Below are positions 630 to 62,979 of a stretch of 64,000 nucleotides of DNA, piece by piece. The stretch's first letter is position 1, and each line of letters starts with the position of its first letter. The notes beneath the pieces are model-generated. The model ran no database searches, had not been told where the DNA came from, and saw only the letters and a program-made list of their open reading frames with translations. The DNA is taken from assembly GCF_018350175.1 (NCBI RefSeq), contig NC_058382.1, forward strand, positions 49,974,001-50,038,000. Direction: 5' to 3'. The stretch is from Felis catus (Eukaryota). Made by a program: the position numbers and the translations under genes.

Positions 630-1034
630 GTTGATGAGAGCCCCGATTTTGAAATACACATAACAATGTGTGATGATGATCCACCTACACCCGAGGAAGA
701 CTCTGAGACACAGCCTGATGAGGATGAGGAAGAAGAAGAAGAAGAAAAAGTTTCTCCACCAGAGGTGGGAGCTGCCATTAAGATCATCAGGCAGTTAATG
801 GAAAAGTTTAACTTGGATCTGTCAACAGTTACACAGGCATTCCTAAAAAATAGTGGTGAGTTGGAGGCTACTTCCTCCTTTTTAGAGTCCGGTCAGAGGG
901 CTGATGGGTATCCCATTTGGTCCCGACAGGATGACTTAGATTTGCAGAAAGATGACGAGGATGCCAGAGATGCATTGGTCAAAAAATTTGGTGCTCAGAA
1001 TGTAGCTCGGCGGATTGAATTCCGAAAGAAGTAA
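630..1034 (+). CDS. TERF2IP: Last coding exon of telomeric repeat-binding factor 2-interacting protein 1 (RAP1), C-terminal RCT domain
   Basis: Acceptor tttctctAG at 628-629, then VDESPDFEIHITMCDDDPPTPEEDSETQPDEDEEEE...GAAIKIIRQLMEKFNLDLSTVTQAFLKNSGELEATSSFL...GYPIWSRQDD...KKFGAQNVARRIEFRKK*. This is nearly identical to the mammalian RAP1 C-terminus. The ORF-track ATG at 666 is internal. Confidence 0.97.
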   Translation, partial: VDESPDFEIHITMCDDDPPTPEEDSETQPDEDEEEEEEEKVSPPEVGAAIKIIRQLMEKFNLDLSTVTQAFLKNSGELEATSSFLESGQRADGYPIWSRQDDLDLQKDDEDARDALVKKFGAQNVARRIEFRKK

Positions 1035-4624: not shown

Positions 4625-5066
4625 CAATGAAGTGAATATAGAAGATAACCACTGCCCACAAAACAGTTAAAAACTGCCTTTTGTGTTTCCAAGTGTTTTC
4701 TCCTTCCTCTTGCATTAATCTTGTCCCAAACAGGATGACTTCATTATCCACTGTCCTTTAAATTGCGCTGATTTGCATCAAAAGAAGAGAGGTCTGGACC
4801 AGGTTCTGAGAATGACTTCTTTTTCTGGAATCTCAGGCCTTGGTAAGCTTTGTAGCATATGGAACACAGCCTGAAAAGCATCTTCACTGAAGCACAGTTC
4901 GGGGTGGAGGGTCCTCTTTTTGTGGGCCAGGACTCGGAAAAGTTACCTGTTCCTGAAAATCTGTGGATAACAGTTGACATAAAGGCTTGAGGTTTCTGCA
5001 CATTGCTGGTGAGTTGGCCAAGGGAATGAGATGGTTGTCCAGTTGACTGTGCTGCAGATGAGTGTC

Positions 5067-5630
5067 TCAGTGTGTCTCTCCTCGAGGATCCCACTTTGCA
5101 ATCAGAGTCTGGCAGATTTCATCCCACCATCGCAGAATATATGTCTACCTGCCCCAGATCCTGCAGTTGGTGGTTTTGGTGCTCAGGATGAGGCTGAGAG
5201 TAGTCCTTCAACTGTAGTACTCCTATGTGCTTCTATTCTTTGTGATTCTGGCACTTTTCTTGCTTTGGCAGCCAGAAAGGAGCCTGAGTATCTGAGACTC
5301 GCAGAGTTGATGGTATTGGCCGGTAATTCCGAGGAGAGTAGAGAATTCTCTCTGCATAGTCTTTATGGGCTGTACCATCATGACGCTTGGTCCTTGGTTC
5401 ACACAAGAGACAGAGGACTCCTGGGATGGGAGAGGAGCCAGTAGAAATGTTTGGTTCCTACGGAAAAAATGGGAGGAAGCAAAATGATGAGACCTGCCTG
5501 GGAAAGTGGGCAGATCAATTTGGTGGTGCTGAGCTGTCAGACCTGGTCTTGCATTTGGGCTGTCAGCCAAGGAATTCATGGACTCACTTCTCTGCCTTGG
5601 GTATAGAGATCTTTAATTCTGAAACCACAT
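5067..5630 (-). pseudogene. DUXB: DUXB-ps exon 5 (homeodomain 2 helix 3 plus C-terminus)
   Basis: Acceptor ctttttcttcacatAG, then MWFQN*RSLYPRQRSESMNSLADSPNARP...VNQGPSVMMVQP / SDTQAPFWLPKQEKCQNHKE*KHIGVLQLKDYSQPHPEHQNHQLQDLGQVDI / ILRWWDEICQTLIAKWDPRGETH*. TAA at 5613-5615, TAG at 5233-5235, frameshifts near 5335 and 5140. Confidence 0.92.
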
Positions 5631-6169
5631 CTATGTGAAGAAAAAGACAGTGTCATAAGACAAGTGATTCTGGCTCGGTTTCTCATACTATGTAAAGCAA
5701 AGGGGCTATTAATACAGGCCCCATTATCAGGATGGGGTGTGTGTGGGTGTGTTTCATGTGAAATAGAACTATTGCATATATATGTTATTAATTACTCTGA
5801 TTCCTGTGTATAGTGTGTATGTATATATGTGTACATATGAATGTGTGTATACACATACAAACACAAAAACTGAGGTCCTAACGCACTTAGCAATCAACTA
5901 TAGATGGATTGAAACTGGTTGAAAAGGCATATGCTTTAGATTCTTCCCTTTAATTTCAACATTGGATCAGCAAATAAGTTTTCTTGACCAGGTTGACATT
6001 TATCTCTTTGCCAACATGTGTATAAGAATCCCAATCTTATATACTTGGTTATAAATAAATCTGATCAAGGATTAATTAACACACTGTACTGATAAAGCTA
6101 TGAATGTGTTTCCTAGTCATGAGCATTTAACATACACTAAACCACTGTCCTCATAACTTTAGAAGGTAC

Positions 6170-6378
6170 CCAGTGAGAGTGATTTTTTTCTTTCAACTGG
6201 AGGACATTGGACTAAGTCTGTAGATTTTTGAAGCTGTCACAAGTTGGTGGAGGGGTAGGTAGGGTATTTGGTTGAGGCCAGGAATGCTTAAAAATACTGA
6301 TTAGGCGCAGGACAACCTCATAAGAAAGGAATTATGTGGACCAAAATGACCAAGCAGTGTCAAGCTGTAGAAAACCTG
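6170..6378. mobile_element. MER20-like hAT-Charlie DNA transposon relic in DUXB intron 4
   Basis: ggacattgg...gtctgtagattttt...tgtcacaa...gaggccaggaatgct...caggacaacc...aaggaattat...ccaaaatg...agaaaacctg follows the MER20 layout. Confidence 0.6.
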
Positions 6379-6562
6379 ACAGGGTATTCCCAAAATAGAT
6401 AGTATTAACTTTCATATTTCCCCCCATTTTTGCTGCTGGAGATTCTAAATGGTTATCACACTGACAGAATTCTTCATTTTGCAGGAATCTGACTTGCACT
6501 TATAACAAGGATATAACATCACTTACAGGTAGAACATATTTGGTGCCATAGACAGAACTTAC

Positions 6563-6715
6563 TTGAATTCTTGATTCCTGAATGTCTGTTATTTTAGCCA
6601 GTTTTTTCCTGGTTGTAATATCAGGGAATTGGTTCCTCTCAAAAGCTTGAAGTAGGATATGTGATTGAGGTCTTGTGATGGATGTCGTCTTCTCTGGCTG
6701 CTTTTGGTAAGTATT
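6563..6715 (-). pseudogene. DUXB: DUXB-ps exon 4 (homeodomain 2 N-arm, helices 1-2)
   Basis: Acceptor ctcttttAG and donor GTAAGT. Translates (E)YLPKAAR / [43 protein letters not shown] versus human [52 protein letters not shown]. Frameshift near 6692; 153 nt does not fit phase 1 to phase 0. Confidence 0.92.
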
Positions 6716-7076
6716 CTAAAAGAGAACATGGAACAGAAGGTGTCTTTTAGGACAGTTCTCATATTTGAACTGAGAACTTGAACCTAGGAAGATAATGCTG
6801 ACACTCCCCCTGAATCCCTGAGGTTGACAGAACAGGATGCCACCCTGCTTAGAGCATCAAGACAAAAGGCCCAGAGACTTGCGTGCTAAGAACCTACCTG
6901 TCGCACCCAGCTGTGGGGCCATGCTTTTATTTCTGACGCTAGGGTGCCCAGAACAAGCTGTAAATGCCTCCTAAGATAATGATTTTTTTGTCGAGAATAT
7001 GGGCACAACATGCAGAGCCGTTTTCACTTTCTCTGGGATCCACTGGAGAAACGCATTTGGACTAGTGGATTCTTAC

Positions 7077-7174
7077 CTTGAGACCGAGGCAGCTGATTTT
7101 GTTCCTGGGTTTCATCTTAAGGAGCATCCAAATTCCAATTGTCTTTGTTTGGATCTGAGGTTTTTAAGTCAAAT
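7077..7174 (-). pseudogene. DUXB: DUXB-ps exon 3 (homeodomain 1 helix 3 plus linker)
   Basis: Acceptor ttctcccacttAG and donor GTAAGA. I*LKNLRSKQRQLEFGCS / DETQEQNQLPRSQ versus human [35 protein letters not shown]. The invariant Trp codon is TGA (7169-7171). Frameshift near 7117. Confidence 0.85.
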
Positions 7175-8284
7175 CTAAGTGGGAGAAGAAGATGTTGAAG
7201 TCATGTAACTCAATCTGTGTTGTTCCAAGTGGCAAGGCAATTAAATGAAATTGATTTGATCAACTGCCATTGGGATAATATCCATAAAAAAAGTGATGTA
7301 TTATCCTAGGAGTTATTATGAGCATACAATTCAAGACAGCATTTCTTTTATGGTCATCCTCACGGTATCCCAAGTAAAATTCCCTGATTGAAGAGACACT
7401 GTTCTACCAAAGGAGATCGATATTTCTTTTTCTCCCTTTCCCTCCTCCCATCTCTCTCTCATAACATGTCTTCTATGTGTGGATGTCTTTTCTTGGGCCC
7501 TATCATCTCTTCATAAGAAGTACCATTTTATTTTATGTAATAAACACAGAAGAAATACCATTTTATTATATATAATACATACGGAATTGATTGTGAAAAG
7601 AATTTTAGATGGGGAGTAAGTTAGCCATGGTCCAAGAGCTGTACTAACATTCATCCACATTCCCTCTTATCCCATAGTCAGCAATAAGTAAGGAGACTTC
7701 TAGGACCCAGTACGCCTTGCTGTGAAACTCTTGTCACTAATATAACCATTTGAACTCTTTCTTTGTTTCCTCATTATTGGAGTCAGATTTGCAGTGTACT
7801 TTCTAATTGTTTTATTTTGATAATTTGCAATAGGAATTAGGGTATTAATGACAACCAATATTTAACAAATCACTCTCTTATCCAGGCATTGTGCTAAAAG
7901 GTTATCTGTTTTCTAAATGAGAATATTTGCAGGTAAGCCTTAAGCACATCACCAGATAGTCCCATAGTATGTACTTTTATTACTGGGAATTGAATAAGCT
8001 ATCTCTTCACACCCAGAACTAATGCATGAAGAAGAGTAAAACATTTCTCTTCAGCATCCCCTCAGACTGAGGACCTTGTAGCCAATGGCTTATTGGAGTC
8101 TCTGTGCAGACACAAAACTAGGAACTCATAATTTTCTTCTAAAAGCACACTTTTATTGATCTTCATTGTTTTAAATGCTGTTTGGTATAATTGTTTACAG
8201 CTATCGAAGAAATCCAACTTAGTTTAATTTTTACATCAGTACCATTCAAAATAATACAATATGGGATTTTCATATACTTAAAAA

Positions 8285-9021
8285 TTTTTTAATTAAATTA
8301 TTTTTAAGTTTGTTTATTTTGAGAAAGAGCGAGCACAAGCTGGGGAGGGGCAGAGAGAAGGAGGGAGAATCCCAAGCACAGAGCCTGATGTGGGGTTCAA
8401 ACTCACAGACATTGAGATCATGACTTGAGCTGAGATCAAGAGTCAGATGCTTTATCAACTGCGCCACACAGGCACCCTGTTCATTTTTTAGTTTTGAGAA
8501 ACAGTATGAGCCGGGGAGGGGTAGAGCGAGAGGGAGACACAGATTCAAAGCAGGCTCCAGGCTCTGAGCTGTCAGCACAGAGGCCAACGTGGGGCTCGAA
8601 CTCATGAACCTTGAAATCATGACCTGAGCCAAAGTCAGATGCCCAACCGTCTGACCCAGACCCCTACTTCATATGTGTGTGTGAAAATCACATTTCAGGT
8701 GTTTAAAAAAACCTAGCCTGAAAATTGGGAATTTATGTGAGTTCTTGCCCCACAGTTTCCTCATAATTACGTATTAATCATCATTCTGCAGGATATATCA
8801 GAACATTTTTTTAAGATTTTTGTTTTTTAATTTTTTTAAAGATTTATTTTTGAGAGAGAAAGCGCGAGTGAAGGAGGAGCAGAGAGAGGGAGAGAGAGAG
8901 AATCCCAAGCAGGCTCTGTGCTGTCAATGCAGAGCCTGACATGGAGTTCGATCCTACAAGCCGTGAGATCATGACCTTTCTCACGTTGGACACTTAACCA
9001 ACTGAGCCACCCAGCTGCCCC
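8285..9021 (-). mobile_element. Three Can-SINEs (about 8285-8478, 8485-8663, 8815-9021)
   Basis: Repeated gagatcatgacctgag and ccacccag..gcccc motifs, with poly(T) tails on the + strand. Confidence 0.9.
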
Positions 9022-9024
9022 AAA

Positions 9025-10545
9025 GATATTTTATTTTAGTTTAGTTTAGTTTAGTTTAATTTAATTTAATTTAATTTAATTTAATTTAATTTTATTTTAT
9101 TTTATTTTATTTTATTTTATTTTTTTAAAGATTTTTTATTTTTATTTATTTTTTCAATATATGAAATTTATTGTCAAATTGGTTTCCATACAACACCCAG
9201 TGCTCATTCCAAAAGGTGCCCTCCTCAATACCCATCACCCCCCCTCCCCTCCCTCCCACCCCCCCATCAACCCTCAGTTTGTTCTCAGTTTTTAACAGTC
9301 TCTTATGCTTTGGCTCTCTCCCACTCTAACCTTTTTTCTTTTTTTTCTTTCCCCTCCCCCATGGGTTCCTGTTAAGTTTCTCAGGATCCACATAAGAGTG
9401 AAAACATATGGTATCTGTCTTTCTCTGTATGGCTTATTTCACTTAGCATCACACTCTCCAGTTCCATCCACGTTGCTACAAAGGGCCATATTTCATTCTT
9501 TCTCATTGCCACGTAGTATTCCATTGTGTATATAAACCACAATTTCTTTATCCATTCATCAGTTGATGGACATTTAGGCTCTTTCCATAATTTGGCTATT
9601 GTTGAGAGTGCTGCTATAAACATTGAGGTCCAAGTGCCCCTATGCATCAGCACTCCTGTATCCCTTGGGTAAATTCCTAGCAGTGCTATTACTGGGTCAT
9701 AGGGTAGGTCTATTTTTAATTTTCTGAGGAACCTCCACACTGTTTTCCAGAGTGGCTGCACCAATTTGCATTCCCACCAACAGTGCAAGAGGGTTCCCAT
9801 TTCTCCACATCCTCTCCAGCATCTATAGTCTTCTGATTTGTTCATTTTGGCCACTCTGACTGGCGTGAGGTGATATCTGAGTGTGGTTTTGATTTGTATT
9901 TCCCTGATAAGGAGCGACGTTGAGCATCTTTTCATGTGCCTGTTGGCCATCCGGATGTCTTCTTTAGAGAGAAGTGTCTATTCATGTTTTCTGCCCATTT
10001 CTTCACTGGGTTATTTGTTTTTCGGGTGTGGAGTTTGGTGAGCTCTTTATAGATTTTGGATACTAGCCCTTTGTCTGTTATGTCATTTGCAAATATCTTT
10101 TCCCATTCCGTGGGTTGCCTTTTAGTTTTGTTGGTTGTTTCCTTTGCTGTGCAGAAGCTTTTTATCTTCATAAGGTCCCAGTAATCATTTTTGCTTTTAA
10201 TTCCCTTGCCTTTGGGGATGTGTCGAGTAAGAGATTGCTACGGCTGAGGTCAGAGAGGTCTTTTCCTGCTTTCTCCTCTAGGGTTTTGATGGTTTCCTGT
10301 CTCACATTCAGGTCCTTTATCCATTTTGAGTTTATTTTTGTGAATGGTGTGAGAAAGTGGTCTAGTTTCATCCTTCTGCATGTTGCTGTCCAGTTATGCC
10401 AATACCGTTTGTTAAAGAGACTGTCTTTTTTCCATTGGATATTCTTTCCTGCTTTGTCAAAGATGAGTTGGCCATACGTTTGTGGGTCTAGTTTTGGGGT
10501 TTCTATTCTATTCCATTGGTCTATGTGTCTTTTTTTGTGCCATTC
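9025..10545 (-). mobile_element. 5'-truncated felid L1 (ORF2 3' end, 3' UTR, A-tail expanded into pentanucleotide repeats)
   Basis: ORFs 10168-10371, 9932-10171 and 9381-9950 encode the L1 ORF2 C-terminus ([44 protein letters not shown]), broken by frameshifts. The tail at 9030-9150 is a (TTTAG)/(TTTAA)/(TTTTA) array. Confidence 0.95.
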
Positions 10546-10549
10546 ATTA

Positions 10550-10775
10550 AAACTTTTTAAAAAATGTTTTATTATCTATTGTTGACAGAGAGACAGGGTG
10601 CAAGCGGGGGTTGGGAGGGCAGGGGCAGAGAGAGAGGGAGACACAGAATCTGAAACATGCTTCAGGCTCTGAGTTGTCAGTACAGAGCACGATGTGAGGC
10701 TCAAACTCATGAACTGTGAGATCATGACCTGAGCAGAAGTTGGAGGCTTAACCAACTGAGCCACCCAGGCCCCCC
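10550..10775 (-). mobile_element. Can-SINE abutting and truncating DUXB exon 2
   Basis: The head gggggcctgggtggctcagttggttaag starts immediately after the DILQ codons on the - strand. Confidence 0.9.
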
Positions 10776-10843
10776 TTGGAGGATATCCTTTTGACTCTGG
10801 TTGTAAACAGTCCTGCCTTTCCAGGTTTCTTTTTGTAGTCTGC
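10776..10843 (-). pseudogene. DUXB: DUXB-ps exon 2, 5' part only (homeodomain 1 N-arm and start of helix 1)
   Basis: Acceptor ttttctcttgaccAG, then (G)[22 protein letters not shown] versus human [23 protein letters not shown]. Runs directly into a Can-SINE head at 10775. Confidence 0.88.
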
Positions 10844-10974
10844 CTGGTCAAGAGAAAATGGGAAGAGGAGTACGAAGGATATGTTTATGGATTAAAAACT
10901 CTGTGTGAACATATGTCATATGTTTTTCTAGGATGAAAGCCTGTAGGTTCATCAATGATTCTATATATTTTAAA

Positions 10975-11377
10975 ATTTTTTTTAAAAAGTTGATTCATTT
11001 TGAGAGAGAGAGTTGTGGTGGGCGTGGGGGGTTGGAGAGAGAATCCCAAGCAGGTGCCACACTATCAGTGTGGCACCCAACTCAGGGCTCAAACTCACAA
11101 ACCATGAGATCATGACCTGAGCCGAAATCAAGAGTCAGATGCTTAACCAGCTGAGCTGCCCGAGCACTGCAAGTGTCTGACTCTTGATTTCGACTCAGGT
11201 TATGATTTCACAGTTAGATTGAGTCCTAGTTCTTGATAATGAGACTCACACTGGGCTCTGTGCTGTCAGTGAGGAGCTTGCTTGGGATTCTCTATCTCCC
11301 TGGCTGCCCCCTCCCTCATGCTTTCTCTCTCTCTCTCTTAAAAAAAAAAAAAAATCAAAAAGAGACCCAGGTGCCCC
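10975..11377. mobile_element. Nested, inverted Can-SINE pair in DUXB intron 1
   Basis: - strand copy at about 10975-11165 and + strand copy at about 11168-11360. A leftover - strand head fragment (acccaggtgcccc) is at about 11365-11377. Confidence 0.8.
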
Positions 11378-11666
11378 ATACATTTTAAAGGTAGGTGTTC
11401 CATATATATGCTTTTCTCCATTTACAATGTCAATTGAAACTTTTGACAACCTACTTGTGGGACTCCTGGCTGTTACTTTAAATGGAAAATTCCAATCTCC
11501 AATTTTAAAGCACCCATCAATCCTCTAACAACTTATCAATGCAAAACAGCTCCTGTTCCAACCATCTGTCCCTCTAATTATGATTGTGATTTAACTTTTA
11601 TAAACTCTGGGAAATAAAGCACATGGCATTACTGAAGAAGAGAGCAAAATGCAGATGAAAATTTGC

Positions 11667-11691
11667 CACTCGCAGTGCTGTTCAAACCCAT
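11667..11691 (-). pseudogene. DUXB: DUXB-ps coding exon 1 (25 nt)
   Basis: ccaagATG GGT TTG AAC AGC ACT GCG AGT G gives MGLNSTAS(G). Same length as human MNLEGTSG(G), and its phase 1 joins exon 2 in frame. The donor is non-canonical (gcaaat). Confidence 0.65.
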
Positions 11692-11789
11692 CTTGGGAAG
11701 AGGTACCTGGACTCCGTGGAGGTCACTGGGCAACTGAGCAGCTCTGGAAGACGACAGGCTTATCAACACCAAGGGTGGCCCACCCATTT

Positions 11790-11863
11790 CTTATATACCT
11801 TTCTATCTAATCCCTTCATTATTGTTCAACACTTGTAGAAAGAAACTTGAAGTAATCAGATTA
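11790..11863 (-). promoter_or_regulatory. Putative DUXB proximal promoter: TATA box, TAATCC motif and P3 homeodomain palindrome
   Basis: TATATAAG on the - strand at 11790-11797, about 100 nt upstream of the ATG. TAATCC at 11808-11813. TAATCAGATTA (TAAT-N3-ATTA) at 11853-11863. Confidence 0.5.
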
Positions 11864-12119
11864 AGAGGAAGTACAGATTCTACCAGGCAGTTTTAAAACT
11901 TTAAAGATACCCTAATATCTTTCCAAATATGTCTTAGAATCTGTGCTCTCTAGTGTACGTACCCTATGCAATTTATATATATATATGCAATACATATATG
12001 CATTTATATATTTAAAACATGTTCTCCATGTTGTACTCCTGCTTTTTAATTTTGGCTTGATATTATTTATAATTTTGGAAAGATCTACCTACATTATATA
12101 TATATTTTATTTATTGAAA

Positions 12120-12920
12120 ATAATTTTTAATTGTTTATTTTTTAGAGAGAGAGACAGCGCATGAGCTGGGGAGGGGCAGAGAGAGGGGGAGACAGAATCT
12201 GAAGCAGGCTCCAGGCTCTGAGCTGTCAGCACAGAGCCCAGTGCGAGGCCTGAACTCAGTAACCGTAAGATTGTGACCTGAGTTGAATTTGGATGTGTAA
12301 CTGACTGAGTCACCCAGGCACCCTTTTTTCTTTTCCTTTTTCTTTTCTTTTCTTTCTTTTTTTTTTTTTAAGTTTATTTATTTATTGTGAGAGAGAGAGA
12401 GAAAGTACAAGTTCGGGAGAGGCAGAGAGAAAGGGAGAGAGAGAATCCCAAGCAGGCTCCACACTGTGAGTGTGGAGCCTGATGTGGGGCTTGAACTCAT
12501 GAACTGGTTAAGTTAGATGCTTAACTGACTGAACCGCCTAGGCACCCCTATATTTTTCATCTTTTTTTTAATGTTTATTTTTGAGGAAGAGAGACAGTGC
12601 AAGCGAGGGAGGGGCAGAGAGAGAGACACACACACACACACAGCATCCAAACCCGGCTCCAGGCTCTGAGCTGTCAGTACAGAGCCCGACATGGGGCTTG
12701 AACTCAGAAACCGTAAGATCATGACCTGAGCCGAAATTAGATGCTTAACTGATTGAGCCACCCTGGCGCCCCTATACATTTTTTAAGTTTATTTTTCTTG
12801 AGATAGAGAGGGAAAGAATCCCAAGCAGGCCCTGTGCTGTCACCATGAACCATGAGATCATGGTCTGAGCTGAAACCAAGAGTCAGATGCTTAAATGACT
12901 GAGCCACCCAGCCACCCCCC
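12120..12920 (-). mobile_element. Cluster of four tandem Can-SINEs
   Basis: Heads end near 12323, 12548, 12772 and 12920, each preceded on the + strand by a T-rich tail. Confidence 0.9.
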
Positions 12921-18305: not shown

Positions 18306-20244
18306 GCATGTAATTCTTAGGTCATTGATGTTCACAAGCTCACCATGCAATTGTTACTTGACTACAGATTTGTTGTAGCACCTGTTTCATTTAACTTCTC
18401 TAATGCTCATTTTACTCCCTCATCTGCTCTCATTTCACAGCAGCTGTAGCCTGGAGGGTCTCAGCCCTGAGTGGGGTGCCAGGTAAGAAGGAAGATCCAC
18501 TTGTATGGATACCGTGGTCCAAGAAAACTCAGGTGGATAGGGGGAATGGAATCCAACCCTGCTCCCCTAATGAGGGTGACAAGGAGCCTGCATGGCCCAG
18601 ACTCCACAGGAAAGGGAGGGGAGAGGAAGGGCACCTTCCTAGCATTTTCCTGATAGCCTTACTCCAGTCTGCAGTGGCTGACGGGATTGTTCTGACCCTT
18701 TCCAGGGGCCACCGTCAAACCCTGCTCCTGGTCCTGCTTGTTCCTTGCTGATCCCCCCCATCTCCCAGTCCTCCATGGTTTGGCTGCTGTTGCCTTTGCA
18801 GAAGGACCTTATAGGATTTCCACTTATGCCCAGTGATTTTGGGGTGAGTTCATGGAAAAAGATTTTTTCTCTGGATTTTGTGTTGCCTTGAAACGGGGTC
18901 ATTCTATGATTGGTATTTTAATAAATCATCTGTAAGGAGGGAAGCTTGAACAAGGCTGGTGCCATAATTGTGAAGGAGCAGCAGTCACTCACTGATGTTG
19001 GTCAGGAGAGAGAGCAGTGGCATTTTGTGGCCTAGACAATGTTGCAATTTATCTGTGTTTAGACAGAATCATAAAGTGATCTTGTTTGTGTCTTGATCCA
19101 TCATGGCCACAGAGTGGATGTGTCTGATGTTCATAGTCTGTAAAAACATTTATGTTCTGCAGAAGGACACCAAGATATAACTGAAGGTACCAGGCCCAGT
19201 CCTGGCTATCAGGTGTGGCTTTACTCTTTCTCATACATTGCTTTGAGAGGTGGGGCAGGAGGTGAGCTGGAGAAATGCAGCCCAGCTGCTGGATCCATTG
19301 TGGTGTCTGCTCTCAAATAGGGGTCCGGGCTAGACAGAAGGAAAAGAAAAGCATTGTCAGAAAATAATGGAGCCATGAGGAGTCCGACTGGGGGAGGGGG
19401 AGAGCTTGGGCTGGTGGCAGTCTAGACCTCCTGCCAAGGGAAGGGCCAGTACTCAGGCAGAGGGTGCCCTAGGGCGTTCCCTTGAGGACAAACTCCTTTC
19501 CATTCTCTCCAGATGTCTGACCCCTGTCTACCCTCCCCTCTCTCCAACTTACTTCCATCTATTGCCACCCCCTGCCATCCTCACATCAGCCATATCAGTC
19601 CCAGAAAATGCTTAAAGGACAGTCCCACAGGGCTTAGGGCTTCCCTCACTGCCAGATGCCATCTTGGAGAGGGTGAGGAAGTAGAAGAGGTGGTACAATG
19701 ACCCCCATTTGAGCACCACGGTGCCTGTCCTACAGCATATCTAGAATGTTCCAAAGAGCTAATGGAACTGATACAAAACAGAAATTTCTATTATGGAAAG
19801 CATTTTGCATAAAACCTTCACAGTACTGAAAAAGTACTTCAATTCAGAAAAAAAAAAAAATTTAGCTGTTCCTCCGAAAATGTTTAATCCATTCATGACT
19901 TAAGAGAATAAAATGGCGCTCTGTACGGTGGATCCAGTATGTACATGTGGGCATGTGTATGTGTGCACACATAGTCCTTGGATAAATGTTGGGTGCCAAG
20001 TTGACTACTGAGTCATTCTCACCGGGCACATTGAACCGACTCTCTTGGAGACAAATTTCCTCATGGGTTTAAAGTGCATCTTTATAAAAGGAGTCTTACC
20101 CATTTTGGGGGGGGGGAATCTGAGGACTTTTTTTCTTCCTCCAGGAGGGCACACCTTTCTTTTTCCCAGATTGTATTCTCAAACTCTTTACTTAAGAAGA
20201 ATGACGAGGAAAGATGTTGGCAATTACTGAATGTTAGCGCATGA

Positions 20245-47222: not shown

Positions 47223-50200
47223 TTTATTTATTTTTTTAATATGAAATTTATTGTCAAATTGGTTTCCATACAACACCCAGTGCTCATCCCAACATGTGCC
47301 CTCCTCAATGCCCATCGCCCACTTTCCCCTCCCTCCCACCCCCCATCAACCCTCAGTTTATTCTCAGTTTTTAAGAGTCTCTTATGGTTTGCCTCCTTCC
47401 CTCTCTGTACCTTTTTTTTTTCCCCTTCCCCTCTCCCACGGTCTTCTGTTAAGTTTCTCAGGATCCACATAAGAGTGAAAATATATGGTATCTGTCTTTC
47501 TCTGTATGACTTATTTCACTTAGCATAACACTCTCCAGTTCTATGCACATTGCTACAAAAGGCCATATTTCATTCTTTCTCAGTGCCAAGTAGTATTCCA
47601 TTGTATATATAAACCACAATTTCTTTATCCATTCATCAGTTGATGGACATTTAGGCTCTTTCCATAATTTGGCTATTGTTGAAAGTGCTACTACAAACAT
47701 TGGGGTCCAAGTGCCCCTATGCATCAGCACTCCTGTATCCCTTGGGTAAATTCCTAGCAGTGCTATTGCTGGGTCATAGGGTAGATCTATTTTTAATGTT
47801 TTGATGAACCTCCACACTGTTTTCCAGAGTGGCTGCACCCATTTGCATTCCTACCAACAGTGCAAGAGGGCTCCTGTTTCTCCATGTCCTCTCCAGCATC
47901 TATAGTAGGGTGTTCTGTAACCTCCATGCTTTTGGAGGTTTTCCAGACTTTTTCCTGTGGTTGATTTCAAGTTTCACAGCATTGTGGTCTGAAAGTGTGC
48001 ATGGTATGATCTCAATTCTTTTATACTTATGAAGGGCTGTTTTGTGACCCAGTGTGTGATCTATCTTGAAGAATGTTCCATGTGCACTCGAGAAGAAAGT
48101 ATATTCTGTTGCTTTGGGATCCAGGGTTCTAAATATATCTGTCAAGTCCATCTGATCCAATGTATCATTCAGGGCCCTTGTTTCTTTATTGATCCTGTGT
48201 CTAGATGATCTATCCATTGTTGTAAGTGGGGTATTAAAGTCCCCTGCAATAACCACATTCTTATTAATAAGGTTGCTTATGTTTGTGATTAATTGTTTTA
48301 TGTATTTGGGGGCTTCCGTGTTTGGTGCATAAACATTTATAATTGTTAGCTCTTCCTGATGGATAGACCCTGTAATTATTATATAATGCCCTTCTTCATC
48401 TCTTGTTACAGCCTTTAATTTAAAGTCTAGTTTGTCTGATATAAGTATGGCTACTCCAGCTTTCTTTTGACTTCCAGTAGCATGATAGATAGTTCTCCAT
48501 CCCCTCACTTTCAATCTGAAGGTGTCCTCAGGTCTAAAAGGAGTCTCTTGTAGACAGCAAATAGTGGGTCTTGCTTTTTTACCCATTCTGATACCCTATG
48601 TCTTTTGGTTGGAACATGTAGTCCATTTACATTCAGTGTCATTATTGAAAGATATGGATTTAGAGTCATTGTGATATCTGTAGGTTTCATGCTTGTAGTG
48701 AGTCTCTGGCACTTTGGGTCTTTGCAACATTTCACTCACAGAATTCCCCTTAGGATCTCTTGTAGGGCTGGTTTAGTGGTGATGAATTCCTTCAGTTTTT
48801 GTTTGTTTGGGAAAACCTTTATCTCTCCTTCTATTCTGAATGACAGACTTGCTGGATAAAGGATTCTCAGCTGCATATTTTTTCTGTTCATCACATTGAA
48901 GATTTCCTGCCATTCCTTTCTGGCCTGCCAAGTTTCAGTAGATAGGTCTGCCACTATTCTTATGTGTCTACCTTTGTAAGTTAGAGCCTGTTTATCCCTA
49001 GCTGCTTTCAGAATTTTCTCTTTATCCTTGTATTTTGCCAGTTTTACTATGATATGTCATGCAGAAGATCGATTCAAGTTATGTCTGGAGGGAGTTCTCT
49101 GTGCCTCTTGGCTTTCAATGCCTTTTTCCTTCCCCAGATCGGGGAAGTTCTCAGCTATGATTTGTTCAAGTACACCTTCAGCCTCTTTCTCTCTCTCTTC
49201 TTCTGGAATTCCAATGATATGGATATTGTTCCATTTGATTGCATCACTTAGTTCTCTAATTCTCCCCTCATACTCCTGGATTTTTTTATCTCTCTTTTTC
49301 TCAGCTTCCTCTTTTTCCATAATTTTATCTTCTAATTCACCTATTCTCTCCTCTGCCTCTTCAATCCATGCTATGGCTGCCTCCATTTTATTTTGCACCT
49401 CATTTATAGCATTTTTTTTAGCTCCTCATGACTATTTCTTAGTCCCTTGATCTCTGTAGCAATAGATTCTCTGCTGTCCTCCATGCTTTTTTCAAGCCCA
49501 GTGATTAATTTTGTGACTATTATTCTATTATTCTAAATTCTTGTTCTGTTACATTGCTTAAATCGTTTTTGATCAATTCGTTAGCTGTTGCTACTTCCTG
49601 GAGTTTCCTTTGAGGAGAATTCTTTTGTTTCGTCATTTTGAGTAGTCCCTGCGGTGGCTCCAAACTGTCTGGAGTAACTTGCGTTGGTGGGCGGGGCCAC
49701 AGTCAGACCCAATGTCTTGTCCCCAGCCCACCGCTGGGGCCACGGTCAGACTGGTGTGTACCTTATCTTCCCCTCTCCCAGGTGCAGGACTCACTGTGGA
49801 GTGGTGTGGCCCCTGTCTGGGCTACTTGCACACTCCCAGGCTTGTGGTGCTGCTTTGATGGGATCTGGTGTATTAGCCAGGGTGGGTCTGCAAGGTGCAC
49901 AGGGGAGGGAGGGGCAGACTTAGCTGGCTTTGCCATTGGTGGTCCCCTGTGGGAGAGGCCCTGCAGCACAGGGAGGGAGGGAGGCAGGCAGACCCGTTGG
50001 AGGGATGGATCCAGAGAAGCACAGCATTGGGCGTTTGCGCAGTGCAAGCAAGTTCAGTGACAGGAACTGGTTCCCTTTGGAATTTCGGCTGGGGGATGGG
50101 AGAGGGTGGTGGCACACAGGTGGCCTTTGTTCCCCTGCCCAAGCTGAGCTCTGTCTTCCCAGGCTCAACAAGTCTCCCTCCTGGTGTCCTCTCATCCTCC

Positions 50201-58664: not shown

Positions 58665-60077
58665 ATTTTTTAATTTTTTTATTTTATTTTATTTTTTTAA
58701 ATATGAAATTTATTGTCAAATTGGTTTCCATACAACACCCAGTGCTCATCCCAACATGTGCCCTTCTCAATGCCCATCACCCACTTTCCCCTCCCTCTCA
58801 CCCCCCATCAACCCTCAGTTTATTCTCAGTTTTTAAGAGTCTCTTATGGTTTGCCTCCTTCCCTCTCTGTACCTTTTTTTTTCCCCTTCCCCTCTCCCAT
58901 GGTCTTCTTTTAAGTTTCTCAGGATCCACATAAGAGTGAAAACATATGGTATCTGTCTTTCTCTGTATGGCTTATTTCACTTAGCATAACACTCTGCAGT
59001 TCCATGCACATTGCTACAAAAGGCCATATTTCATTCTTTCTCAGTGCCAAGTAGTATTCCGTTGTGTATATAAACCACAATTGCTTTATCCATTCATCAG
59101 TTGATGGACATTTAGGCTGTTTCCATAATTTGGCTATTGTTGAGAGTGCTGCTCTAAACATTGGGGTACAAATGCCCCTATGCATCAGCACTCCTGTATC
59201 CCTTGGGTAAATTCCTAGCAGTGCTATTGCTGGGTCATAGTGAGGACCGTTCACACTGTTTTCCAGAGCGGCTGCACCAGTTTGCATTCCCACCAACAGT
59301 GCAAGAGGGTTCCCGTTTCTCCACATCCTCGCCAGCATCTATAGTCTCCTGATTTGTTCATTTTAGCCACTCTGTCCGGTGTGAGGTGGTATCTGAGTGT
59401 GGTTTTGATTTGTATTTCCCTGATAAGGAGCGACGTTGAGCATCTTTTCATGTGCCTGTTGGCCATCCGGGTGTCTTCTTTAGAGAAGTGTCTATTCATG
59501 TTTTCTGCCCATTTCTTCACTGGATTATTTGTTTTTCAGGTGTGGAGTTTGGTGAGCTCTTTATAGATTTTGGATACTAGCCCCTTGTCCGATATGTCAT
59601 TTGCAAATATCTTTTCCCATTCCATGGGTTGCCTTTTAGTTTTGTTGATTGTTTCCTTTGCAGTGCAGAAGCTTTTTATCTTCATGAGGTCCCAATAGTT
59701 CATTTTTGCTTTTAATTCCCTTGCCTTTGGAGATGTGTCAAGTAAGAAATTGCTGCGGCTGAGGTCAGAGAGATTTTTTCCTGCTTTCTCCTCTAGGGTT
59801 TTGATGGTTTCCTGTCTCACATTCAGGTCCTTTATCCATTTTGAGTTTATTTTTGTGAATGGTGTAAGAAAGTGGTCTAGTTTCATTCTTCTGCATGTTG
59901 CTGTCCAGCTCTCCCAGCACCATTTGCTAAAGAGACTGTCTTTTTTTCCATTGGATATTCTTTCCTGCTTTGTCAAAGATTAGTTGGCCATACGTTTGTG
60001 GGTCTAATTCTGGAGTTTCTATTCTATTCCATTGGTCCATGTGTCTGTTGTTGTGCCAATACCATGCTGTCTTGATG
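58665..60077 (-). mobile_element. 5'-truncated felid L1 with a small internal deletion
   Basis: ORFs 59536-59976, 59251-59520 and 58919-59338 encode the ORF2 C-terminus. About 20 nt are missing near 59240 relative to the copies at about 9700 and 47780. Confidence 0.95.
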
Positions 60078-60800: not shown

Positions 60801-61221
60801 GACGGTGGATTAATTAGGTTGTACCAAATTCTGCATTTTATACAAACCACATTCAATTCTAAATAGGATCTAATTAGCCCATTGGAATAAAAAAAATATG
60901 TGGTTCTGGACCACAAGCCAAATCACGTGTTTTATTTTTTATTTCTTTTCAATTTTTTGGTTATGAAAGTTTCAAGCATGTATAAAGATGGAATAGTACA
61001 GTGATCAGCCACATATGCATCACCCTGGTTCAAAAATTGTGTGTCAAAAATAAATTCACCCATATCTCACAGCACTCCCTATGGATTAATTTTAAATAAA
61101 TTATATTTTGTTTATAAGCATTTCAGTGTATATAAAATATAAAAGTAATTTCATTATTATGCTGAAATTATTAACAATAGTTAATACAATCAAGGGCTTA
61201 GTCCTTGTATGAATTTTCCTG

Positions 61222-61350
61222 TCTTTTCTTTTCTTTTCTCTCCCTCCCTTACTTCCTCCACCCTTTCTTTCCTCCCTCCCTCCCTTTCTTCCTCCCCCTT
61301 TCTTTCTTTCTTTCTTTCTTTTCTTTCTTTCTTTCTTTCTTTCTTTCTTT

Positions 61351-61387
<37 letters not shown>

Positions 61388-61439
61388 TCTTCCTCCCTTC
61401 TTCCCTCCTTTTCTTTCTTTCTCCCTTTCTTTTTCCTTT

Positions 61440-61479
<40 letters not shown>

Positions 61480-61604
61480 TTCCTTCCCTTCCTTCCTTTT
61501 CTTTCTTTCTTCTCTTTCTTCTTTCCTTCCTTTCTCCCTCCATCCCTCCCTTCCCCCTCTCCCTCCCTCCTTCCTTTATTCCTCCCTCCTTTTCTTTCTT
61601 TCTC

Positions 61605-61655
<51 letters not shown>

Positions 61656-61678
61656 CTTCTTTCTTTCTTTCTTTCTTT

Positions 61679-61711
<33 letters not shown>

Positions 61712-61791
61712 TCTTTCTTCTTTCCTTCCTTTCTCCCTCCCTCCCTTCCTTCCTCCTCTCCCTCCCTCCCTCCTTTCATCCTCCCTCCTTT

Positions 61792-61871
<80 letters not shown>

Positions 61872-61874
61872 TTT

Positions 61875-61934
<60 letters not shown>

Positions 61935-62293
61935 TTCTTTCCCTTCCTTTTCTTTCTCTTCTCTTCTCTTCTCTTCTCTTCTCTTCTCTTCTCTTCTCTT
62001 CTCTTCTCTTCTCTTCTCCTCTCCTCTCCTCTCCTCTCCTCTCCTCTCCTCTCCTCTCCTCTCCTCTCCTCTCCTCTCCTCTCCTCTCCTCTCCTCTCTT
62101 TTCTCTTCCCTTCCTTCCTTCCTTCCTTCCTTCCTTCCTTCCTTCCTTCCTTCCTTCCTTCCTTCCTTCCTTCCTCCTCCCTCCCTCCCTCCCTCCCTCC
62201 TTCCTTCTGCCCCCCCTTCCCTCTCTCCCTCACTCCCTCCTTTCCTTCCTTCCTTCCTTCCTTCCTTCCTTCCTTCCTTCCTTCCTTCCTTCC
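61222..62293. repeat. About 1.07-kb compound polypyrimidine microsatellite: (TTTC)n, (TTCTC)n, (CTCCT)n, (TTCC)n, (CTCC)n
   Basis: Almost purine-free on the + strand. Sub-arrays: TTTC about 61790-61930, TTCTC about 61955-62015, CTCCT about 62015-62095, TTCC about 62110-62170 and 62245-62290. Confidence 0.98.
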
Positions 62294-62979
62294 ACTGGGG
62301 AAAAATAATAAGGACCTAAACTGCTCCTTATTACACTTGGTTGATACAGTTTTTAAGTCTCTCTGAATCCATAGATTCCACCCTTTTCTTTTTTTTTTTT
62401 TTGTTTTGTTTTAATTAATTTACTCATTGGTGCTATACCTTCTTCTGGATCATCTTCATGCTCTGCCTCAGTTTTCACTGGAGGTCAACTGGAGAACATA
62501 AATATCTTCTCTCATTTCATTAGATTAATGGCATGCCCATTTCAGGTTCTATTTCAATAGAATACTAAACACTGAAATACCTGGACCCCTGTGCTCTGAA
62601 GTGATAAGGTGAGATGCTGTGATGGAATGAGTAATGAGATTGAAAATAGGAAAGAAAAAACTGAATGAAGTTGACTACATGGCCTTGGAGAAAACAGTCG
62701 ACTTTTCTCTATTATCAAAATTATCAAATACCAAATGTTGCTAATATTAACATCAGAATACCATTAACAAACCTCTTGACAGATCTTGGCCTTGTCTCCA
62801 GAGAGCTTTATCTCAGAGATCACAAAAACAGTCTAATTTAACTATTAATAGATATTAAAAATAATGCACTAATTGCATAAAATAAATTCAAATACAAAAT
62901 ATAAATGGTTGTATTATAATTAGTGGGCAGGAATGTTCACTGATCAGCTATTGACACTCTAATTAAAAACCTTAATATA

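What the first reader, a model, noticed from the sequence alone, without database searches (positions are those of the whole stretch)
5067..11691. Hidden DUXB double-homeobox gene, dead in this felid
Seen in sequence: five - strand exons, with canonical splice sites except the exon 1 donor (gcaaat) and the missing exon 2 donor. Together they rebuild a two-homeodomain protein ending ILRWWDEICQTLIAKWDPRGETH*. Lesions: Trp to TGA in HD1 helix 3 (7169-7171), WFQN-TAA in HD2 helix 3 (5613-5615), TAG at 5233-5235, frameshifts near 7117, 6692, 5335 and 5140, and loss of the 3' half of exon 2. Established: human DUXB lies just downstream of TERF2IP on the opposite strand and belongs to the eutherian DUX family (DUX4/DUXC/DUXA/DUXBL), linked to embryonic genome activation. 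Inference: this is a unitary loss of DUXB in this lineage, and the number of lesions suggests it is old.
Basis: partly seen in the sequence, partly recalled or inferred. Interest (0 to 1): 0.8.

Follow-up and report, generated by a model that had tools for sequence, protein, structure and literature searches.

The report
Dead DUXB gene beside cat TERF2IP
This stretch holds the decayed remains of DUXB, a double-homeobox gene of the early embryo, in a cat-family genome; several other mammal lineages have lost the same gene, so the finding is real but fairly ordinary.

Summary
On the - strand, tail-to-tail with the last TERF2IP exon (630-1034 +), lie five exons of a double-homeobox gene: 11667-11691, 10776-10843, 7077-7174, 6563-6715 and 5067-5630.

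They align exon by exon with caniform DUXB proteins (71-90% identity). In a tree the remnant is sister to all seven caniform DUXB rows, with pangolin next.

- TGA replacing the helix-3 Trp of homeodomain 1
- TAA inside WFQN|Q of homeodomain 2
- a third stop (TAG)
- four frameshifts
- loss of the 3' half of exon 2, where a SINE/L1 block now sits

A six-frame search of the whole 2.43-Gb assembly finds no second DUXB-like copy. It is therefore an intron-containing unitary pseudogene.

Two rough clocks (stop density, and divergence of the SINE at the exon-2 break) both give about 0.06-0.07 substitutions per site. That suggests tens of millions of years, with wide error. Sharing among felids could not be tested.

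A 2026 survey already lists this locus as "DUXB_cat_chrE2", in a file described as holding genes with two complete homeodomains. The sequence contradicts that description.

DUXB loss is already known in mouse, rat, guinea pig and cow. Interest is modest.

The parts
630..1034 (+). Last coding exon of TERF2IP (RAP1 C-terminal domain). It is the syntenic anchor and lies tail-to-tail with the DUXB remnant.
   Evidence: Stop-to-stop frame of 134 aa. Pfam Rap1_C at 1.3e-15, 57.7 bits.
11667..11691 (-). DUXB exon 1, with ATG at 11689-11691. It encodes MGLNSTAS plus the first base of a Gly codon. The donor at 11665-11666 reads GC instead of GT.
   Evidence: Identical over 9 of 9 residues to the N-terminus of Hipposideros DUXB (P0013). 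It is the only match to the pattern in six frames of the window.
10776..10843 (-). Stump of DUXB exon 2, encoding the start of homeodomain 1 ([22 protein letters not shown]). It breaks off after ...ILQ, and both the 3' half and the donor are gone.
   Evidence: 19 of 21 residues identical to monk seal DUXB. DUX homeodomain profile 8.5e-05. The missing 29 residues are absent from the window.
8875..10775 (-). Block of interspersed repeats that abuts the exon-2 stump and takes the place of its 3' half. In order: a carnivore-type SINE (about 10590-10775), a 3' fragment of a LINE-1-like element (about 9150-10575) with an A-rich tail, and another SINE (8875-9021).
   Evidence: Sequence. SINE copies are listed. 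The SINE at the break differs from the consensus of 26 window copies at 8 of 135 non-CpG sites. The LINE-1 label comes from recall and from likeness to other copies in the window that lie next to an L1-type endonuclease frame.
7077..7174 (-). DUXB exon 3, encoding helix 3 of homeodomain 1 and the linker. TGA replaces the conserved Trp (7169-7171), and there is a frameshift at 7114-7117.
   Evidence: KNLRSKQRQLEFGCSL against KNHRSKQRQLEFGCSL of harbour seal, 15 of 16.
6563..6715 (-). DUXB exon 4, encoding the linker and the first 46 residues of homeodomain 2. Two bases are lost in a Trp codon at about 6686, which shifts the frame.
   Evidence: Pfam Homeodomain 1.3e-06. 78-83% identity to caniform DUXB. 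Lesion mapped.
5067..5630 (-). DUXB exon 5, encoding helix 3 of homeodomain 2 and the DUXB-type tail. Lesions: TAA at 5613-5615, a frameshift at 5332-5339, TAG at 5233-5235, a frameshift at about 5136, and several in-frame codon losses. The native stop is at 5067-5069.
   Evidence: 139 of 197 aligned positions are identical to harbour seal DUXB.

Best explanation
This is the orthologue of DUXB in a felid genome, decayed into a unitary, intron-containing pseudogene. It sits in the ancestral position next to TERF2IP and keeps the five-exon layout, but neither homeodomain can be made.

- Homeodomain 1 has lost its middle (the 3' half of exon 2, now a SINE/L1 block). It also has a stop in place of the helix-3 Trp.
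- Homeodomain 2 is preceded by a frameshift and is cut by a stop inside the recognition helix.
- The tail carries one more stop and two more frameshifts.

No product with a DNA-binding domain can arise, so the locus most likely does nothing.

Shown: the exons, the lesions, the orthology, the synteny, and the lack of a second copy in the assembly.

Inferred: the gene died on the felid stem, roughly tens of millions of years ago, and then drifted neutrally. The loss was probably tolerated because DUXB is a weakly constrained, repeatedly lost member of its family.
For: Anatomy and lesions:
- Searches give the exons, the three stops, the four frameshifts and the missing half of exon 2.

Orthology:
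- 5 of 5 hits come from caniforms, 78-83% identical; four are named double homeobox (protein) B and one carries no gene name.
- in a tree of 44 rows the remnant is sister to 7 caniform DUXB rows (support 99) and pangolin is next (94).

Synteny:
- Searches place the TERF2IP last exon beside it. PMC3004920 (passages) uses the same anchor.

Unitary status:
- of 28 matches to seal DUXB at E <= 0.1 in the 2.43-Gb assembly, the 5 at this locus have 68-81% identity. The other 23 have 44% or less.
- exon 4 finds only itself plus one 48% match.

Reality of the sequence:
- 14 DNA-like runs of two organism labels hold 1.00 of 214 sampled 31-letter words of 5060-7200.
- Among them are 5 runs from 2 studies that are not marked as a possible source of the assembly.

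Felid origin:
- Position in the tree.
- RNA runs labelled 'feline metagenome' hold 0.16-0.44 of the words.
- By-eye identity with DUXB_cat_chrE2 of PMC13558733 Supplementary Data 2.

No annotated intact gene in the group:
- Of 62 relatives of seal DUXB, 9 are from caniforms and none is labelled as from a feliform.

Age:
- 3 stops in 292 retained codons imply about 0.07 substitutions per site, with a Poisson range of 0.014-0.2.
- The SINE at the exon-2 break is 0.059 diverged at non-CpG sites.

Dispensability:
- DUXB pseudogenes lie beside TERF2IP in mouse, rat, guinea pig and cow (PMC3004920, section 8).
- Human DUXB was non-toxic and transcriptionally inactive in myoblast assays (PMC10514451, passages).
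Against: - No reads were laid, so each lesion rests on the assembly plus the word shares. Contigs and sampled words can miss rare variants.
- No other feliform sequence could be obtained, so neither the age nor the breadth of the loss was observed directly.
- At columns that are nearly invariant among 25 other DUXB proteins, the remnant differs at 4 of 33. That is 9th of 26 rows, with no excess over intact genes.
- Its tree branch (0.20) is longer than the paths to 5 of 7 caniforms (0.115-0.159). It is shorter than the paths to the two caniform rows marked LOW QUALITY (0.227 and 0.229). Amino-acid divergence therefore does not by itself show long neutral decay.
- Seven of the eight splice sites that remain are still canonical.
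- Expression was not examined.
Confidence: 0.9

Rival explanations
1. The gene is dead, but only recently. On this reading the lesions arose within the genus or species and not on the felid stem, and other cats still have DUXB.
For: - The lower Poisson bound of the stop clock is 0.014 substitutions per site.
- Divergence at conserved columns shows no excess.
- Most splice sites are intact.
- No other felid sequence was seen.
Against: - There are eight independent disabling events.
- The SINE at the exon-2 break is 5.9% diverged at non-CpG sites, with 11 of 24 CpG positions changed.
- None of 62 database relatives of seal DUXB is labelled as from a feliform, against 9 from caniforms.
Confidence: 0.15
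2. The locus still makes a useful shortened or re-spliced product, a protein or an RNA. The gene model DUXB_cat_chrE2 in PMC13558733 implies this.
For: - That model strings the exon-2 stump, a novel exon near 6900-6960, exon 4 and parts of exon 5 into one frame.
- Exon 1 and 7 of the 8 remaining splice sites are intact.
Against: - The model itself carries X at the TAA and TAG and at the last frameshift.
- It lacks nearly all of homeodomain 1.
- Homeodomain 2 stops after WFQN, before the rest of the recognition helix.
- The + strand frame that overlaps exon 5 matches no Pfam family.
Confidence: 0.04
3. It is one of two copies, and an intact DUXB lies elsewhere, so this would be a duplicated pseudogene and not a unitary one.
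For: - Assemblies can miss repeated or subtelomeric genes.
- Lorises have a second, intronless DUXB (PMC13558733, section 6).
Against: - The six-frame search of all 71 contigs finds nothing above 44% identity outside this locus.
- This copy lies in the ancestral syntenic place and has introns.
Confidence: 0.03
4. The lesions are errors of this assembly, or rare alleles.
For: No reads could be laid.
Against: - 14 runs under two organism labels, from at least 5 studies, hold every one of the 214 sampled words of 5060-7200.
- The independent model in PMC13558733 has the same stops.
- Eight separate lesions would all have to be errors.
Confidence: 0.02

Closest known systems
DUXB pseudogenes beside TERF2IP in mouse, rat, guinea pig and cow (Leidenroth and Hewitt 2010, PMC3004920; section 8 and figure legends read)
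   Same: - The same gene in the same syntenic place.
- Decayed exons with lineage-specific stop codons and missing exons.
- Interpreted there as secondary loss.
   Different: - A different lineage with a different set of lesions.
- Here all five exons are still traceable. Mouse and rat keep only exons 4-5, and guinea pig and cow lack exon 4.
- Cat was surveyed in that paper but is not in its overview of DUXB gene structures (Additional file 7). Its Figure 2 could not be seen.
Model 'DUXB_cat_chrE2' in Supplementary Data 2 of PMC13558733 (2026)
   Same: By eye it is letter-for-letter the window's exon-2 stump, exon 4 and exon-5 frames, with X where the window has TAA and TAG.
   Different: - The file is described as holding genes with two complete, presumably functional homeodomains.
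- The passages of the main text that I searched do not call the cat gene a pseudogene.
- The model skips exon 1 and exon 3 and invents splices around the frameshifts.
Intact DUXB of Caniformia (harbour seal, foxes, dog, raccoon dog)
   Same: Five-exon layout, the exon-1 peptide, both homeodomains split at the same place, and the tail ending ...ILQRWDE.CQAL.AKWDP.EGTH. Identity is 71-90% per exon.
   Different: - Those genes have open frames.
- Some caniform entries are themselves flagged LOW QUALITY or truncated (stoat, fur seal, monk seal, ferret).
Primate DUXBL pseudogenes (PMC3004920)
   Same: A paralogue of the same family that decays in place, with species-specific stops and a deletion of exons.
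   Different: A different locus (next to CJ057/TMEM254, not TERF2IP) and a different clade in the tree.

Membership tests
DUXB orthologue group | Two paired-like homeodomains in one gene, each homeobox split by an intron after homeodomain residue 46 | tested here: met
   - Homeodomain 2: exon 4 ends ...ESRIQ and exon 5 starts MWFQN. Pfam Homeodomain 1.3e-06.
- Homeodomain 1: the first 17 or so residues are in the exon-2 stump and helix 3 is in exon 3 (I*LKNLRSKQR). The middle is deleted.
- The feature is met as remnants only.
DUXB orthologue group | Position next to TERF2IP, on the opposite strand | tested here: met
   TERF2IP last exon at 630-1034 +. The DUXB stop codon is at 5067-5069 -. PMC3004920 uses the same anchor.
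DUXB orthologue group | Groups with DUXB and not with DUXA, DUXC/DUX4 or DUXBL in a tree | tested here: met
   - the remnant lies inside the 30-row DUXB clade (support 99), as sister to 7 caniform rows (99).
- 43 of the 62 hits were used. The 19 left out were fragments, unnamed rows or near-duplicates.
- Rodent Duxbl itself was not among the rows. Only proteins that NCBI names 'B-like' stood in for it.
DUXB orthologue group | DUXB-type C-terminal tail, without the DUX4/DUXC activation domain | tested here: met
   Exon 5 aligns over 197 positions with seal DUXB (139 identical), through to ...WDEICQTLIAKWDPRGETH.
DUXB orthologue group (as a working gene) | Open reading frame through both homeodomains | tested here: not met
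   3 stops, 4 frameshifts and half of exon 2 missing.
Unitary pseudogene | Lies at the ancestral locus, keeps its introns, and has no working copy elsewhere in the genome | tested here: met
   Synteny and introns. Whole-assembly search. Unassembled sequence cannot be excluded.
Unitary pseudogene | Lesions are real and fixed in the species | tested here: inconclusive
   14 runs hold all 214 sampled words of 5060-7200, but no reads or contigs were laid. The exon-2 break lies outside the stretch that was searched.
Unitary pseudogene | Loss shared by related species, which dates it | not testable with these tools
   - No other feliform genome is held.
- The protein search with the exon-5 frame gave only a giant panda protein.
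- The metagenome scan gave nothing.
DUXA | Best match to DUXA, at the DUXA locus | tested here: not met
   - A separate DUXA-like, intron-containing copy without stops lies at C39:1704353-1705672, 67-71% identical to an orangutan DUXA-like protein.
- The two DUXA rows are the outgroup.

The most novel reading that the evidence does not exclude
With DUXB dead, DUXA may be the only intact double-homeobox gene in this genome.

- Three DUXC/DUX4-type queries (camel, grey whale and one unnamed) find no double-homeobox locus in the assembly.
- Their best hit is a single-homeobox gene at C31:2300563-2300709 (56-61% identity; 60-65% by tblastn), with its helix-3 exon at 2304921.
- Supplementary Data 2 of the 2026 survey lists only DUXA and DUXB for cat.

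If DUXC is truly absent and not merely unassembled, cats would start embryonic genome activation without any DUXC/DUX4-type activator and without DUXB.
Probability: 0.25. Interest if true: 0.6.

Novelty: new member of a known kind. Interest (0 to 1): 0.3.

Why it matters
It adds a carnivore lineage to the list of mammals that have lost DUXB (mouse, rat, guinea pig and cow; marmoset by absence). That strengthens the view that DUXB is dispensable and weakly constrained.

It corrects a 2026 catalogue, which files the cat locus among genes with two complete homeodomains.

It also sharpens a question that can be tested directly in cat embryos: which DUX-family genes, if any besides DUXA, act at genome activation in felids.

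Tried and rejected
There is therefore no read-level check of the lesions, no view of splicing or expression, and no comparison of organism A with organism B.
2. Six RNA-labelled metatranscriptome runs hold 0.15-0.95 of the sampled words, introns included.
3. A protein search with the 121-aa open piece of exon 5 was meant to catch the same broken frame in other felids. It gave 1 hit, a giant panda protein.
4. A scan of metagenome contigs with the same piece matched a pattern in 129 stretches, and none was confirmed.
5. Unnamed database hits (P0035, P0040, P0058, P0060, P0062 and others) were compared with the window. None is close enough to be a felid copy.
6. A test for excess change at conserved DUXB columns gave 4 of 33, which is mid-range and shows no signal.
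7. A search for a neighbouring CPHXL-like homeobox used a DUX homeodomain profile. Nothing beyond the DUXB exons appeared in 64 kb, but a divergent homeobox could be missed.
8. A protein-atlas look-up of the C31 single-homeobox exon returned only 'homeodomain', with scores of 0.86 or less.
9. Two literature searches, DUXB with Felis and DUXB with carnivor, gave mostly 'Duxbury' hits. No paper in them describes a felid DUXB pseudogene.
10. Figures 2 and 4 of the two surveys, which chart presence or absence per species, are not held. What they show for cat is unknown.


Full report
WHAT IS THERE. The window is mammalian DNA, 38-47% G+C over most of its length, full of carnivore-type SINEs and LINE-1 pieces. 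It is G000:C39:49974001-50038000 of a 2.43-Gb assembly in 71 contigs.

At 630-1034 on the + strand lies a 134-aa frame that matches Pfam Rap1_C at 1.3e-15. This is the last coding exon of TERF2IP. Four kilobases further on, on the - strand and pointing towards it, lie five exons of a double-homeobox gene:
- exon 1, 11667-11691 (MGLNSTAS+G)
- the 5' part of exon 2, 10776-10843 ([22 protein letters not shown])
- exon 3, 7077-7174
- exon 4, 6563-6715
- exon 5, 5067-5630, ending ILRWWDEICQTLIAKWDPRGETH and a stop

Acceptors and donors are canonical, with two exceptions. The exon-1 donor reads GC, and the exon-2 donor is missing.

IS IT MORE THAN CHANCE?
- Exon 4 matches Pfam Homeodomain at 1.3e-06.
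- I built a profile from 81 DUX homeodomains and ran it over all 2138 six-frame pieces of the window. It hits exon 4 at 1.3e-19 and the exon-2 stump at 8.5e-05. Nothing else scores better than E = 0.13.
- The exon-1 peptide equals the first nine residues of a leaf-nosed bat DUXB protein. Its pattern occurs once in the six frames of the window.

WHICH GENE IS IT?
- A search with exon 4 among 5.8 billion proteins returned five proteins, all from Caniformia (foxes, seals, raccoon dog) and 78-83% identical. Four are named double homeobox (protein) B and one is unnamed.
- Local tblastn and a frameshift-aware alignment with harbour seal, monk seal and dog DUXB align every exon. Exon 2 gives 19 of 21, exon 3 gives 15 of 16 over helix 3, exon 4 gives 42-43 of 53, and exon 5 gives 139 of 197, including the DUXB-specific tail.
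- A tree of 44 rows used the read-through with X at each break plus 43 of the 62 relatives of seal DUXB. The 19 rows left out were fragments, unnamed rows or near-duplicates. The method was the quick IQ-TREE search with LG+G4.
- In that tree the remnant is sister to the seven caniform DUXB rows (SH-aLRT 99), with pangolin DUXB next (94). This mirrors the species tree for a feliform.
- DUXA, DUX4-like and the 'B-like' proteins of anteater, elephant and manatee fall outside the 30-row DUXB clade. Rodent Duxbl itself was not among the rows.
- TERF2IP is the anchor by which Leidenroth and Hewitt found DUXB remnants in other species (PMC3004920; passages and section 8 read).

THE LESIONS. Against the caniform proteins the remnant shows:
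- TGA for the conserved Trp of helix 3 of homeodomain 1 (7169-7171), with neighbouring Phe to Leu and His to Leu changes
- a frameshift at 7114-7117
- loss of two bases of a Trp codon at about 6686
- TAA at 5613-5615, cutting homeodomain 2 after WFQN
- a frameshift at 5332-5339
- TAG at 5233-5235
- a frameshift at about 5136
- several in-frame codon losses

After ...DILQ the exon-2 sequence runs straight into a SINE. A LINE-1-like 3' fragment and further SINEs follow. The 29 residues that should complete helices 1-2 of homeodomain 1 were sought with the peptides of six orthologues. They are not in 7000-12500 nor anywhere else in the window. Neither homeodomain can be made.

UNITARY OR DUPLICATED?
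- A six-frame search of the whole assembly with seal DUXB gives 28 matches at E <= 0.1. The five at this locus have 68-81% identity, and the other 23 have 44% or less.
- Exon 4 alone finds itself and one 48% match.
- A separate DUXA-like gene with introns and no stops lies 48 Mb away on the same contig. Processed DUXA-like copies with stops lie on C16 and C21.
- Within the limits of the assembly, no intact DUXB exists, so the pseudogene is unitary.

ARE THE LESIONS REAL?
- I could not lay reads.
- The run search does help. 14 DNA-like runs under two organism labels hold all 214 sampled 31-letter words of 5060-7200. Five of these runs, from two studies, are not marked as a possible source of the assembly.
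- The cat model in a 2026 paper carries the same stops (see below).
- The exon-2 junction lies outside the stretch searched.

WHOSE GENOME? Three things point to a felid:
- the position in the tree
- the 'feline metagenome' labels of RNA runs that hold 0.16-0.44 of the words
- a by-eye, letter-for-letter match of the exon-2 stump, exon 4 and the exon-5 frames to the entry DUXB_cat_chrE2 in Supplementary Data 2 of PMC13558733

HOW OLD? This is the weakest part.
- Counting which single-base changes of the 292 retained codons would give a stop, three stops imply about 0.07 substitutions per site, with a Poisson range of 0.014-0.2.
- The SINE that abuts the exon-2 stump differs from the consensus of 26 copies in the window at 8 of 135 non-CpG sites (0.059). 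It has changed 11 of 24 CpG positions. A mixed-subfamily consensus inflates this figure somewhat.
- At a mammalian neutral rate of roughly 2e-9 per site per year, both clocks point to tens of millions of years. That is after the split from Caniformia and probably before the living cats diverged. The rate and these dates are recalled, not computed here.
- Of 62 relatives of seal DUXB in the protein collection, 9 come from caniforms and none is labelled as from a feliform, while 8 are unnamed. This fits, because many felid genomes have been annotated (recalled).
- Against a very long decay, at columns nearly invariant in 25 other DUXB proteins the remnant differs at 4 of 33, which is mid-range.
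- Its branch (0.20) exceeds the paths to five caniforms (0.115-0.159) but not the paths to the two 'LOW QUALITY' caniform entries (0.227, 0.229).
- DUXB evolves fast even where it is intact, so protein divergence cannot date the loss.
- No other feliform sequence could be had.

WHAT IS KNOWN?
- PMC3004920 describes DUXB pseudogenes beside TERF2IP in mouse, rat, guinea pig and cow. It surveyed F. catus, but cat is absent from its overview of DUXB structures while present in the one for DUXA. Its Figure 2 is not held.
- PMC13558733 (2026) surveyed Felis catus. Its Supplementary Data 2 holds DUXB_cat_chrE2, a model that skips exons 1 and 3, adds an odd exon near 6900-6960, splices around the frameshifts and carries X at the stops.
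- The main-text passages I searched for cat, pseudogene, stop codon, loss and absent do not call cat DUXB a pseudogene. Figure 4 is not held.
- Two full-text searches found no paper on a felid DUXB loss.
- Human DUXB was non-toxic and transcriptionally inactive in myoblast assays (PMC10514451, passages). That fits a gene that lineages can lose.

VERDICT. This is a real, well-preserved unitary pseudogene of DUXB in a felid, correctly read by the first stage. It is a further case of a known pattern, and the locus has already been catalogued, though apparently as intact. Its main value is as a correction.

It is also one half of a wider question. Three DUXC/DUX4-type queries find no double-homeobox locus in this assembly, so DUXA may be the only intact family member in cats. 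That wider reading is unproven, because DUXC arrays are often unassembled.

Noticed in passing
G000:C31:2300563-2300709 and 2304921-2305088 (loci L021, L028): A single-homeobox, paired-like gene with the homeobox split after ...PEPRIQ | VWFQNRRAR. It is the best own-genome hit of three DUXC/DUX4-type queries (56-61% identity; 60-65% by tblastn). No second homeobox was found within 10 kb upstream. No DUXC-like double-homeobox locus was found anywhere in the assembly.
   Followed up: partly
G000:C39:1704353-1705672 (+); C16:51143983-51144812 (-); C21:16879850-16880310 (-): A DUXA-like copy with introns and no stops lies on the same contig as the DUXB remnant. Two intronless DUXA-like copies with stop codons, likely processed pseudogenes, lie on other contigs.
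   Followed up: no
window 19524-19731 (-): Residues 50-113 of the long N-terminal extension of the arctic fox DUXB model (P0003) match here at about 55-62% identity, with stops. This suggests a stretch about 8 kb upstream of exon 1 that is conserved between fox and this genome. Another part of that extension looks SINE-derived, because it matches SINE copies in the window. The extension may therefore be an artefact of the gene model.
   Followed up: no
proteins P0004, P0009, P0010, P0036, P0058: Several caniform DUXB entries look damaged too. Stoat, northern fur seal and monk seal are flagged LOW QUALITY, and the fur seal model lacks homeodomain 1. The ferret entry is only the 194-aa tail. An unnamed, mustelid-like frame runs on out of frame. 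DUXB may be decaying independently in some Caniformia.
   Followed up: no
window 61100-62410: A purine-rich, low-complexity tract of about 1.3 kb. It reads as long KKERKKE or SFLPSFLP frames in several frames on both strands.
   Followed up: no
window 9381-9977 (-), inside the repeat block in DUXB intron 2: A 198-aa open piece of a LINE-1-like ORF2 tail, very like copies at 47458-47850 and 58919-59338. The long open stretch suggests a fairly young insertion into the already broken gene. It has no Pfam match.
   Followed up: no
window 5062-5108 (-) and protein P0008: The dog UniProt DUXB model ends in another reading frame (...CQADCKMGSWRRDTLRH) than seal and fox DUXB do. That alternative frame is also conserved in the window. 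Either the dog model or the dog gene differs at the C-terminus.
   Followed up: no
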